A stretch of 54,892 nt of DNA from Selenomonadaceae bacterium (GCA_017529935.1 JAFXNB010000057.1:1-54892); one strand, 5' to 3'. Numbered from the stretch's first letter, positions 50,719-51,812 are shown. Numbers and translations are program-made. The notes: a model not told the origin generated them from the letters alone.

Positions 50719-50836
50719 AAAATTTTGAGCGGTCAAAGCGGCCGCTCTTTTTTTGCCTTGATTAGTGCCGCACTTTCTTGTAAAATAAGCGCGTTACCGA
50801 AGACTCTTTCCTGGGTAACAGGAGGAGGTGTTATTT

Positions 50837-50917
50837 ATGCTGACGGTATTCGTCGTGACGGTCGCAGCAAATGTTGTATCGTACTTCATTTGCAAGTGGC
50901 TTGACCGCCGCAGGTAA
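50837..50917 (+). CDS. Type I toxin candidate, Fst-like 26-aa hydrophobic peptide MLTVFVVTVAANVVSYFICKWLDRRR
   Basis: Promoter TTGATT(50758)-17 nt-TAAAAT(50781). SD GGAGGAGGTG. Single TM segment plus basic tail. Terminator 50955-50990. Confidence 0.65.
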   Translation: MLTVFVVTVAANVVSYFICKWLDRRR

Positions 50918-50945
50918 CAAAAGCCCGTGGTTATCGTTACTCTAC

Positions 50946-51029
50946 AAAACGAGCGAAAACCCCCGATAGCTGGTCGGGGGTTTTCTTTTGTTAATCATGC
51001 TGACGGTCAAATTGGTTTCCTCTAAATAC
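50946..51029 (-). ncRNA. Candidate antitoxin sRNA 1 (convergent, shares the bidirectional terminator)
   Basis: Minus-strand promoter TTGCAA(51064-51059)-17 nt-TAAACT(51041-51036). The transcript contains ACCGUCAGCAU, complementary to the toxin start region AUGCUGACGGU. Ends are approximate. Confidence 0.5.
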
Positions 51030-51173
51030 GCCTAAAGTTTAGCACACGCTGAAAATTTTTGCAAGGGGGAACTCAGCGGAGTCGCCGCCTTGATTCAAAA
51101 AATATTTCCGTGTAAAATCAGCATGTCGGTCACGGACGACCCCCAATCGCCATAATAAAAGGAGGTGGCGAGT

Positions 51174-51254
51174 GTGTTTGAACAGTTCGTTATAACTGTC
51201 GCAGCAGGCGTGGTAACGCACCTCATCTGCAAGTGGCTCGACAGTCGTAAGTGA
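51174..51254 (+). CDS. Type I toxin candidate copy 2: (GTG)FEQFVITVAAGVVTHLICKWLDSRK
   Basis: Promoter TTGATT(51090)-17 nt-TAAAAT(51113). SD GGAGGTGG. GTG start aligned to the ATG of copy 3. Terminator 51293-51327. Confidence 0.6.
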   Translation: MFEQFVITVAAGVVTHLICKWLDSRK

Positions 51255-51283
51255 CCAAGAGCACGTGGTTATCGTTAATCTAT

Positions 51284-51363
51284 AAAACGAGCGAAAACCC
51301 TCGGCGGCAACCGGGGGTTTTCTTTTGACGAGTATGTTTGAACTAAGTTACTTTCATAAGTGC
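51284..51363 (-). ncRNA. Candidate antitoxin sRNA 2
   Basis: Promoter TTGCAA(51398-51393)-17 nt-TAAACT(51375-51370). It contains GUUCAAACAUACUCG, complementary (with one G-U) to the toxin TIR CGAGUGUGUUUGAAC. Confidence 0.5.
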
Positions 51364-51507
51364 ATTTAAAGTTTAACACGTCGATAAAATTTTTGCAAGT
51401 GGGAACTCAGCGGAGCTGCCGCCTTGATTCAAAAAATATTTTCGTGTAAAATCAGCATGTCGGTCACGGACAACCTCCAATCTCGCCGGCGAAAGGAGGT
51501 GGCGGGC

Positions 51508-51588
51508 ATGCTGGAGCAGTTCGTAGTAACTGTCGCAGCGGGTGTGGTAACGTACCTCATCTGCAAGTGGCTCGACAGTCGTAAGTGA
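51508..51588 (+). CDS. Type I toxin candidate copy 3: MLEQFVVTVAAGVVTYLICKWLDSRK
   Basis: Promoter TTGATT(51424)-17 nt-TAAAAT(51447). SD GGAGGTGG. Terminator 51627-51660. Confidence 0.65.
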   Translation: MLEQFVVTVAAGVVTYLICKWLDSRK

Positions 51589-51617
51589 CCAAGAGCACGT
51601 GGTTATCGTTAATCTAT

Positions 51618-51696
51618 AAAACGAGCGAAAACCCCCGATAGCAGTCGGGGGTTTTCTTTTGGCGATCATGCTGGAACTAGTTACTTTCGTAAGTAC
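51618..51696 (-). ncRNA. Candidate antitoxin sRNA 3
   Basis: Promoter TTGCAA(51731-51726)-17 nt-TAAACT(51708-51703). It contains UCCAGCAUGAUC, complementary to the toxin start CAUGCUGGA. Confidence 0.5.
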
Positions 51697-51812
51697 AGCT
51701 GAAGTTTAACACGTCGATAAAATTTTTGCAATAGTAAAATCAAAGGAGCCGCCGATTTCTCGGAGACTCCCGTTATTTACGTTATAAGATTGTTTCGGTT
51801 GAAAGTGACGGC

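What the first reader, a model, noticed from the sequence alone, without database searches (positions are those of the whole stretch)
50758..51731. Three tandem Fst/par-like type I toxin-antitoxin modules downstream of minE
Seen: three units of about 310-330 bp each contain five elements. (i) A plus-strand promoter TTGATT-17nt-TAAAAT. (ii) A strong SD and a 26-codon ORF encoding a single hydrophobic helix with a conserved ..ICKWLD(R/S)R(R/K) tail. (iii) A GC-rich bidirectional terminator (AAAACCCCCG..CGGGGGTTTT). (iv) A convergent minus-strand promoter TTGCAA-17nt-TAAACT about 75-85 nt beyond the terminator. (v) Within that antisense transcript, a 9-15-nt segment complementary to the toxin's own start-codon region. 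This arises from plus-strand direct repeats: ATGCTGACGGT at 50837 and 50997, CGAGT(G/A)TGTTTGAAC at 51169 and 51331, and CATGCTGGA at 51507 and 51667. The complementary segment differs between copies but co-varies with its cognate toxin start. Established: this is the architecture of the pAD1 par (Fst RNA I/RNA II) family, with convergent RNAs sharing a terminator and pairing through direct repeats at the translation initiation region. The ..WL..R+ tail is Fst-like. The ORF track misses these genes. Whether this family is already catalogued in diderm Firmicutes I cannot tell.
Basis: partly seen in the sequence, partly recalled or inferred. Interest (0 to 1): 0.65.

Follow-up and report, generated by a model that had tools for sequence, protein, structure and literature searches.

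The report
Three tandem Fst-like toxin-antitoxin modules
Between minE and an outer-membrane porin gene of a rumen Selenomonadaceae bacterium lie three unannotated copies of a known kind of RNA-controlled toxin gene (Fst type), so this is a solid but ordinary find that extends the family to double-membraned Firmicutes.

Summary
Window 50758-51731 holds three ~333-bp units. Each has a sense promoter, a Shine-Dalgarno site (SD), a 26-codon ORF, a hairpin terminator, a convergent minus-strand promoter, and a 16-19-nt copy of the toxin's own start region inside the predicted ~80-nt antisense RNA.

Cognate RNA pairs are predicted to bind at -30 to -37 kcal/mol; non-cognate pairs reach only -13 to -25.

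A genome scan found 232 relatives, all with an invariant CKWLD motif, in Selenomonadaceae, Veillonella, Lachnospiraceae, Streptococcus and others. Across 98 ORFs the terminator, the covarying repeat and the convergent promoter recur. The invariant residues use all synonymous codons, so the ORF is translated.

The family matches the Streptococcus pneumoniae Fst-A/B clade. Rfam "sRNA" SpF66 hits relatives above threshold, and its consensus encodes ...YFVCKWLDGKE. That locus has published evidence of toxicity and of an antisense RNA.

The window's copies fall below every curated protein and RNA threshold, and the peptides are absent from protein databases.

Verdict: real par/Fst-type type I toxin-antitoxin modules, new members of a known kind. 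Transcripts and toxicity are untested here.

The parts
50758..50786 (+). Unit 1 sense (toxin mRNA) promoter, TTGATT-17-TAAAAT
   Evidence: invariant in the three-unit alignment
50793..50990 (+). Unit 1 predicted toxin mRNA (RNA I-like, ~198 nt). SD AGGAGGAGG at 50820-50828 is predicted to sit inside a hairpin. The 5' GUUACC (50793-50798) is complementary to GGUAAC (50913-50918), which spans the stop codon.
   Evidence: Ends are inferred from the promoter and terminator. Fold; P(SD paired) 0.97.
50837..50917 (+). Unit 1 toxin ORF, 26 aa: MLTVFVVTVAANVVSYFICKWLDRRR
   Evidence: identical peptide in L001
50955..50985 (.). Unit 1 bidirectional terminator hairpin; the loop UAGCUGG contains a YUNR (CUGG)
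   Evidence: flagged on both strands; I1
50945..51029 (-). Unit 1 predicted antitoxin RNA (RNA II-like, ~85 nt). It carries the complement of 50829-50847, encoded at 50989-51007.
   Evidence: D2; cognate -29.6 kcal/mol
51036..51064 (-). Unit 1 antitoxin promoter, TTGCAA-17-TAAACT
   Evidence: hexamers invariant; family-wide strand bias
51090..51118 (+). Unit 2 sense promoter
51125..51327 (+). Unit 2 predicted toxin mRNA. SD AGGAGG at 51160-51165; 5' GGUCAC (51128-51133) is complementary to GUGACC (51251-51256) over the stop codon.
51174..51254 (+). Unit 2 toxin ORF (GTG start), 26 aa: MFEQFVITVAAGVVTHLICKWLDSRK
51293..51322 (.). Unit 2 terminator hairpin (one mismatch in the stem)
   Evidence: I3
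51283..51363 (-). Unit 2 predicted antitoxin RNA (~81 nt); complement of 51166-51183, encoded at 51326-51343
   Evidence: D3; cognate -34.0 kcal/mol
51370..51398 (-). Unit 2 antitoxin promoter, TTGCAA-17-TAAACT
51424..51452 (+). Unit 3 sense promoter
51459..51661 (+). Unit 3 predicted toxin mRNA. SD GGAGG at 51495-51499, with an upstream anti-SD ACCUCC. 5' GGUCAC (51463-51468) is complementary to GUGACC (51585-51590).
51508..51588 (+). Unit 3 toxin ORF, 26 aa: MLEQFVVTVAAGVVTYLICKWLDSRK
51627..51656 (.). Unit 3 terminator hairpin
   Evidence: I2
51617..51696 (-). Unit 3 predicted antitoxin RNA (~80 nt); complement of 51500-51515, encoded at 51660-51675, plus a second shorter block
   Evidence: D4; cognate -37.3 kcal/mol
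51703..51731 (-). Unit 3 antitoxin promoter, TTGCAA-17-TAAACT

Best explanation
These are three tandem, chromosomal, par/Fst-type type I toxin-antitoxin modules.

Each unit makes a ~200-nt mRNA from a moderate sigma-70-type promoter. The mRNA encodes a 26-residue, single-helix membrane peptide with a hydrophobic N-terminus, an invariant C-K-W-L-D motif and a basic tail.

A convergent promoter 3' of the gene makes an ~80-nt antisense RNA that ends in the same hairpin terminator. This RNA overlaps the mRNA 3' end. Its 5' half carries the complement of the mRNA's own start-codon region, because that region is repeated in direct orientation just after the terminator.

Pairing of the antisense RNA from about -9 to +20/+37 around the start codon blocks ribosome loading. 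The peptide is therefore made only when the antisense RNA falls relative to the mRNA. The three antitoxins are partly orthogonal, because the repeat sequence differs between units.

Shown: the sequence elements, their conservation and covariation, and homology to the S. pneumoniae Fst-A/B (SpF66) clade. Inferred: transcript ends, translation block, toxicity and biological role.
For: Anatomy is shown.

Duplex energies: cognate -29.6, -34.0 and -37.3 kcal/mol; non-cognate -12.6 to -25.4. None of 500 shuffles reached the cognate value.

Relatives: 232 in one-genome-per-species contigs, of which 80 were fetched.

Across 98 ORFs:
- A terminator is present in 94.
- The start-region/downstream direct-repeat score averages 12.4 for cognate pairs and 6.5 for non-cognate pairs (99th percentile 11). 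The cognate is the best match in 54 of 98.
- The order terminator < repeat < convergent promoter holds in 76 of 94, with a median predicted antisense RNA of 83 nt.
- A promoter match of at least 10 of 12 is found on the minus strand in 55 of 97 segments, against 3 on the plus strand and 4 in shuffles.

Translation: the invariant CKWLD uses all 6 Leu codons and both the Lys and Asp codons.

Link to a studied system:
- Rfam SpF66 hits relatives at 44-82 bits (gathering score 42), including Veillonella.
- Its consensus encodes MSLILELVLTIIADVIAGIILYFVCKWLDGKE.
- hhalign of the family against that peptide gives 98% probability, E 1e-13.
- F66 lies between SP2168 and SP2169 and was detected by northern blot (PMC3395615). 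Fozo et al. place the tandem Fst-A/B ORFs between fcsR and adcA and report toxicity and a 65-75-nt antisense RNA (PMC2887945).

The peptide fits the Fst/Ldr signature: Trp between the TM helix and a charged tail, and TXXXG in units 2 and 3 (PMC7472228).

The orthologous locus L001 (minD-minE-3 units-ompM) shows parallel changes in the start region and the repeat.
Against: - There is no stranded transcript evidence for this organism. Metatranscriptome contigs cover the units, but they are unstranded, shallow, and sometimes span the predicted promoters.
- The window's antisense promoters match only 8 of 12 consensus positions.
- No curated model reaches its threshold on the window's peptides or RNAs: Fst NF033608 16 bits against a cut-off of 26; Ldr 15 against 27; SpF66 30.6 against 42.
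- A profile of the family does not reach pAD1 Fst itself.
- SD sequestration is predicted for unit 1 but not for units 2 and 3 in the isolated 5' UTR.
- Toxicity is untested.
Confidence: 0.85

Rival explanations
1. The architecture is the same, but the antisense RNA acts mainly through the ~40-nt perfect 3' overlap at the terminator. This would trigger duplex cleavage and mRNA decay, as in TxpA/RatA-type systems, rather than blocking translation at the start codon.
For: The strongest predicted duplex is the 3' overlap, -87 to -92 kcal/mol. Overlap is inherent to convergent transcription through one terminator.
Against: The start-region repeat is conserved in position and covaries with its cognate start region across the family. 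That is hard to explain if it had no role. In par and fst-Sm the repeats are the functional pairing sites (PMC7472228, PMC3543317).
Confidence: 0.1
2. These are antisense-regulated small membrane proteins with a non-toxic physiological role, such as modulating a membrane complex. They would not be a toxin-antitoxin pair in the addiction or growth-arrest sense.
For: The invariant C-K-W-L-D motif suggests a specific partner rather than generic membrane damage. No toxicity data exist for this clade outside S. pneumoniae Fst-B expressed in E. coli.
Against: There is homology to a clade member that stops growth and lowers colony counts when over-produced (PMC2887945). Tight dual control by an antisense RNA and tandem amplification are typical of type I toxins.
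Confidence: 0.08
3. The units are inert tandem intergenic repeats, and the ORFs, promoters and complementarity are incidental.
For: Unit copy number varies between strains, and an empty site exists.
Against: The peptide is conserved across many Firmicutes families with synonymous codon turnover. Single-copy loci have the same layout. There is a strong strand bias of promoter-like sites.
Confidence: 0.02

Closest known systems
S. pneumoniae Fst-A/Fst-B loci (sRNAs F66/F67 = srn502/srn503; Rfam RF02442 SpF66_sRNA)
   Same: Same peptide clade: the SpF66 consensus encodes ...YFVCKWLDGKE, and hhalign gives 98%. Both are tandem copies in an intergenic region with a ~200-240-nt mRNA. Fozo et al. detected a 65-75-nt RNA antisense to the 3' end (PMC2887945).
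   Different: The window peptides are shorter (26 aa against 32) and have T-XXX-G/N instead of D-XXX-G. At the RNA level the window scores only 30.6 bits or less against SpF66, and no Selenomonadaceae locus reaches the gathering score. The host is a diderm Firmicute.
par of Enterococcus faecalis plasmid pAD1 (Fst, RNA I/RNA II)
   Same: Convergent promoters, a shared bidirectional terminator, direct repeats that give pairing over the start codon, similar RNA sizes, and a small hydrophobic peptide with a charged tail (PMC7472228).
   Different: The window locus is chromosomal and triplicated. Sequence similarity to Fst is only marginal (hhalign 7% probability, with ICKWLD aligned to ISRVLD). 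There is one long repeat, plus a weak second block in units 2 and 3, rather than two clear repeats DRa and DRb. A U-turn motif is present in the terminator loop of unit 1 only.
fst-Sm/srSm of Streptococcus mutans
   Same: A chromosomal intergenic module with a ~200-nt mRNA, a ~70-nt antisense RNA, and direct repeats overlapping the start codon (PMC3543317).
   Different: [quoted passage not shown] The window peptides have Thr at that place and a CKWLD motif.
SprA1/SprA1AS (PepA1) of Staphylococcus aureus and Ldr/Rdl of enterobacteria
   Same: These are members of the same Fst/Ldr superfamily signature: a TM helix, a conserved Trp and a basic tail. There is a weak Ldr_toxin hit at E 0.02.
   Different: Ldr/Rdl has a different RNA layout, with the antisense RNA 5' of the ORF. 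There is no threshold-level similarity.
Clostridioides difficile type I toxins (NCBIfam NF047374)
   Same: Sub-threshold N-terminal similarity in 16 of 60 family members. Both are Firmicutes type I toxins.
   Different: Those toxins are about 50 aa long. Scores are far below the cut-off (16 against 60 bits).

Membership tests
Fst/Ldr toxin superfamily (peptide) | Short peptide with one N-terminal hydrophobic transmembrane helix | tested here: met
   26 aa; residues 2-19 are hydrophobic in all three units
Fst/Ldr toxin superfamily (peptide) | [quoted passage not shown] | tested here: met
   W21 followed by D-(R/S)-R-(R/K). W is invariant in 60 of 60 family members.
Fst/Ldr toxin superfamily (peptide) | P/D/S/T-XXX-G(C) motif within the helix (PMC7472228) | tested here: inconclusive
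   Units 2 and 3 have T8-V-A-A-G12. Unit 1 has T8-V-A-A-N12. The family consensus is (S/T)VxA(G/N/S/D).
Fst/Ldr toxin superfamily (peptide) | Score at or above the curated cut-off of an Fst or Ldr HMM (NF033608, PF13955, PF13940) | tested here: not met
   The best results on the window peptides are 16.1 bits against 26 (NF033608) and 15.3 against 27 (Ldr). Across the family, 14 of 60 members reach E<=0.1, with a best E of 1e-4.
Fst/Ldr toxin superfamily (peptide) | Homology to an experimentally studied member | tested here: met
   hhalign of the family against the peptide encoded by the SpF66 consensus (S. pneumoniae fcsR-adcA locus): 98.1%, E 1e-13 (PMC3395615; PMC2887945)
Fst/Ldr toxin superfamily (peptide) | Growth arrest or killing on over-expression | not testable with these tools
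   Needs an experiment
par-type (RNA I/RNA II) locus | Convergent promoters flanking the toxin gene | tested here: met
   Sense promoters match 9 of 12 positions and antisense promoters 8 of 12 in the window. The family-wide minus-strand bias is 55 of 97 against 3 of 97. These are consensus matches only.
par-type (RNA I/RNA II) locus | Shared bidirectional intrinsic terminator | tested here: met
   (94 of 98 family loci). The minus-strand T tract is weak (GCUCGUUUU).
par-type (RNA I/RNA II) locus | Direct repeats transcribed from both strands, giving antisense complementarity at the translation initiation region | tested here: met
   One 16-19-nt block per unit, plus a weaker second block in units 2 and 3.
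par-type (RNA I/RNA II) locus | [quoted passage not shown] | tested here: inconclusive
   A 5'-end/stop-codon helix shows 3 of 6 compensatory pairs between unit 1 and units 2/3 (sequence). Family-wide, the best partner of the 5' end lies at the stop codon in 28 of 74 mRNAs against about 14 expected. P(SD paired) is 0.81 against 0.63 family-wide, but only 0.2 for units 2 and 3.
par-type (RNA I/RNA II) locus | Two stable transcripts of about 200 nt and 65-85 nt | not testable with these tools
   Only unstranded metatranscriptome contigs were available. No reads were found for a relative.
Rfam RF02442 SpF66_sRNA | Bit score at or above the gathering score (42) | tested here: not met
   Window unit 1 scores 30.6 bits (E 6e-5), unit 2 scores 17.2, and unit 3 is not listed. 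Relatives in Streptococcus, Veillonella and others score 44-82 bits. No Selenomonadaceae locus passes.

The most novel reading that the evidence does not exclude
The CKWLD peptides would form a distinct, very widespread and almost wholly unannotated subfamily of Fst-like toxins. Their strictly invariant Cys-Lys-Trp-Leu-Asp motif would reflect a specific conserved target or a Cys-dependent oligomer, rather than generic membrane damage. The tandem arrays, with mutually orthogonal antitoxins and presence/absence variation, would serve a selectable role such as phage defence in gut and rumen Firmicutes, including diderm lineages.
Probability: 0.2. Interest if true: 0.6.

Novelty: new member of a known kind. 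Interest (0 to 1): 0.35.

Why it matters
This gives a clean, testable annotation for three genes that gene callers and curated models miss. It shows that Fst-type type I toxin-antitoxin modules occur in Negativicutes (Selenomonadaceae, Veillonella). No paper in the held literature reports them there.

It also shows that the Rfam "sRNA" family SpF66 is in fact a toxin mRNA family with members across many Firmicutes families.

The set of about 100 loci with covarying toxin start regions and antitoxin repeats is a ready-made natural experiment on how antisense specificity evolves in tandem paralogues.

None of this changes the concept of type I systems.

Tried and rejected
A 40-aa family member found only 8 unnamed proteins.
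- A profile search of PDB sequences gave no hit, not even to Fst.
- tblastn of the 26-aa peptide against the plasmid and phage collections found nothing. Sensitivity for so short a query is low, so this says little. IMG/VR did give 25 loci.
- RNA-seq and size-fractionated ncRNA-seq raw reads labelled as the species of L066 (S. sanguinis) laid no reads on that locus, so the strain probably lacks it.
- A text search for "SpF66" returned malaria-vaccine papers.
- MAFFT plus RNAalifold on 70 toxin mRNAs did not align the UTRs well. It recovered only an ORF-internal hairpin and the terminator. I therefore did not build a covariance model.
- Sub-threshold Rfam hits (BSnc120, rnk leaders, His leader, OrzO-P and others) are terminator look-alikes and were dismissed.
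- I considered a leader peptide or attenuator for a downstream gene. I rejected this because each ORF has its own terminator and the next gene is convergent.

Full report
**1. What is in the sequence**

Window 50758-51731 consists of three head-to-tail units that are 84% identical column by column. Each unit has the following parts.

- A plus-strand TTGATT-17-TAAAAT promoter-like site (50758, 51090, 51424).
- A strong Shine-Dalgarno (SD) sequence and a 26-codon ORF: 50837-50917, 51174-51254 (GTG start) and 51508-51588.
- A G+C-rich hairpin followed by a T run: 50955-50985, 51293-51322 and 51627-51656.
- A minus-strand TTGCAA-17-TAAACT site: 51064-51036, 51398-51370 and 51731-51703.
- Between terminator and minus-strand promoter, a direct-repeat copy of the ORF's own start region: 16-19 nt, 88-89% identical, always 160 nt downstream (D2-D4).

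The minus-strand promoters match only 8 of 12 consensus positions. However, both hexamers are invariant between units while the spacer differs. Upstream lie minC, minD and minE; downstream, on the other strand, lies an SLH-domain OmpM-like gene.

**2. Is the antisense complementarity specific?**

I took transcript ends from the promoter and terminator positions. I then removed the trivially complementary 3' overlap. The 5' part of each predicted antisense RNA pairs with its own toxin mRNA from about -9 to +20/+37 around the start codon.

- Cognate pairs: -29.6, -34.0 and -37.3 kcal/mol.
- The six non-cognate pairs: -12.6 to -25.4 kcal/mol.
- None of 500 shuffles reached the cognate value.

Units 2 and 3 also have a second, weaker block of complementarity further into the ORF.

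**3. Relatives**

A scan of one genome per species with the three peptides found 232 relatives, and I fetched 80 loci. They come from rumen and gut Selenomonadaceae, Quinella and Selenomonas infelix. They also come from Veillonella, many Lachnospiraceae, Enterocloster/Hungatella and Anaerococcus, and from Gemella, Catonella and Streptococcus sanguinis.

All carry an invariant C-K-W-L-D motif near the C-terminus. Many are in tandem arrays of two to four. Across 93 distinct ORF sequences the invariant residues are written with all six Leu codons and with both Lys, Asp and Cys codons. The ORF is therefore under selection as a protein.

L001 is a goat Selenomonadaceae MAG. It has the same minD-minE-three units-ompM layout, and its MinE is 99% identical.

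**4. Family-wide test of the architecture**

These figures are for 98 ORFs.

- A terminator follows the stop codon in 94.
- The best ungapped match between a start region and the 200 nt downstream averages 12.4 for cognate pairs and 6.5 for non-cognate pairs (99th percentile 11). The cognate is the single best partner in 54 of 98 cases. One outlier, L014 at 2410, is simply the next tandem unit.
- The order terminator, repeat, convergent promoter holds in 76 of 94 loci. The median predicted antisense RNA is 83 nt.
- Promoter-like sites matching at least 10 of 12 positions occur just beyond the repeat on the minus strand in 55 of 97 segments. On the plus strand there are 3, and in shuffles 4.

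So the repeat is conserved as a feature while its sequence tracks the cognate start region.

**5. Structure of the toxin mRNA (weaker evidence)**

- The 5' end is complementary to the stop-codon region. Unit 1 has GUUACC/GGUAAC and units 2 and 3 have GGUCAC/GUGACC, so three of six pairs are changed on both sides (sequence).
- Family-wide, the best partner of the 5' end falls within 12 nt of the stop codon in 28 of 74 mRNAs, against about 14 expected.
- The SD core is predicted paired with probability 0.81, against 0.63 for shuffled upstream sequence. In the window this holds for unit 1 (0.97) but not for units 2 and 3 (0.2).

I count these features as suggestive only.

**6. What family is it?**

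Curated protein models do not reach their thresholds. NCBIfam Fst (NF033608) gives 16 bits against a cut-off of 26. Pfam Ldr_toxin gives 15 against 27. The C. difficile type I toxin model gives 16 against 60. Even so, among 60 family members the two commonest NCBIfam hits are these two type I toxin models. A family profile does not find Fst in the PDB, and it aligns with pAD1 Fst only marginally.

The decisive link came from Rfam.

- The best sub-threshold hit in the window was SpF66_sRNA, on the plus strand of unit 1 (30.6 bits, gathering score 42).
- The same model hits relatives above threshold: S. sanguinis at 82 bits, Veillonella at 44-60, and two others.
- The model consensus encodes MSLILELVLTIIADVIAGIILYFVCKWLDGKE.
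- That peptide aligns with the family profile at 98% probability, E 1e-13.

F66 is a northern-validated 239-nt RNA lying between SP2168 and SP2169 in S. pneumoniae TIGR4, with F67 next to it (PMC3395615). Fozo et al. describe the tandem Fst-A/Fst-B ORFs as lying between fcsR and adcA. There they showed a 65-75-nt antisense RNA and toxicity of Fst-B in E. coli (PMC2887945). The neighbouring F67 is annotated in PneumoBrowse2 as part of an Fst-family type I system (PMC12323649).

That F66/F67 and Fst-A/B are the same locus is my inference. It rests on the matching description and on the D-XXX-G motif that PMC7472228 assigns to one S. pneumoniae clade. I could not read the R6 genome itself.

The window peptides also fit the published superfamily signature: a helix, a conserved Trp and a charged tail, with TXXXG in units 2 and 3 (PMC7472228).

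**7. How it most likely works**

By analogy with par and fst-Sm (PMC7472228, PMC3543317), the antisense RNA first meets the mRNA at the complementary terminator region. It then pairs across the start-codon repeat and blocks ribosome loading. The peptide is made only when antisense RNA levels fall.

The elements and their covariation are shown here. Transcript ends, the translation block, relative RNA stability and toxicity are inferred. A variant mechanism, decay triggered at the 3' overlap, cannot be excluded.

**8. Transcript evidence**

Rumen and gut metatranscriptome contigs cover the units or close variants. They are unstranded and shallow. Some span predicted promoters (for example 51022-51172 with no mismatch). 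That could be read-through or DNA carry-over. This evidence is inconclusive.

**9. How well is the family catalogued?**

Nine of ten exact family peptides, including the window's, are absent from a 15-billion-protein collection. A 40-aa member finds only eight unnamed proteins. No Selenomonadaceae locus reaches the SpF66 gathering score. The held literature has no paper that reports type I systems in Veillonella, Selenomonas or Negativicutes. A search for the motif ICKWLD finds nothing, although sequences printed in figures are not searchable.

**10. Verdict**

These are new, divergent and unannotated members of a known kind: the S. pneumoniae-type clade of Fst/par type I toxin-antitoxin systems. 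Here they are triplicated in a diderm Firmicute. The find is useful for annotation and as a natural data set on antitoxin specificity, but it would not surprise a specialist.

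Noticed in passing
window 50755-51736: Contigs in two public runs (X28, X30) join 50755 directly to 51736, with 12 other letters between. This is an empty site that lacks the whole three-unit array. Other joints (50785>51385, 50964>51736, 51666>51016, 51666>50824) indicate strains with fewer or more units. The array is therefore a copy-number and presence/absence polymorphism.
   Followed up: partly
Rfam RF02442 (SpF66_sRNA); L066:2939-3164, L037:2948-3153, L049, L055, L071, L019, L018: The Rfam family listed as a Streptococcus sRNA is a protein-coding toxin mRNA. Its consensus holds an SD, an AUG and a 32-codon ORF ending ...YFVCKWLDGKE. It also hits Veillonella and clostridial loci above the gathering score.
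   Followed up: yes
window 50861-50895 and the equivalent in units 2 and 3 (alignment A4 columns 100-113 / 139-158): A hairpin inside the ORF is kept across the family with compensatory changes, for example GCAAAUG/CAUUUGC against GCAGGUG/CACCUGC. As a result the codon for residue 12 (N or G) covaries with the codons for residues 16-17 (YF or HL). This could reflect RNA structure or helix packing in the peptide.
   Followed up: partly
window 51747-51775 (minus strand), 51078-51089, 51412-51423: A probable terminator hairpin for the convergent ompM-like gene is GGAGUCUCCGA-GAAA-UCGGCGGCUCC followed by UUUGAUUUU. One arm of it (GGAG(T/C)CGCCGCC) recurs at the two unit junctions. This hints at where the duplications were joined.
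   Followed up: no
L081-L105 (IMG/VR contigs): 25 predicted viral or prophage contigs carry CKWLD peptides, often near a contig end. Some members of the family therefore ride on mobile elements.
   Followed up: no
window 51373-51669 (minus strand): A 98-codon ORF runs antisense across unit 3, and a 60-codon one runs across unit 2 (51039-51221). They are not conserved between units, and a gene caller could wrongly pick them instead of the 26-codon toxin ORFs.
   Followed up: no
window 51022-51183: Metatranscriptome contigs with 0-1 mismatches (X26 51022-51172, X25 51052-51183) span the unit 2 promoter. The simple two-transcript model does not predict this. Read-through of the unit 1 terminator, a longer antisense transcript, or DNA carry-over are all possible.
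   Followed up: no
L049, L050, L055 (Veillonella, peptide MLDLVILLIVSIMANVISYFICKWLDSN(S/N)K): These Veillonella loci match SpF66 above threshold. Yet they show only a weak start-region repeat in the searched window (score 7-8), and their best convergent promoter lies further away (~stop+170-180). Their antitoxin may be arranged differently.
   Followed up: no
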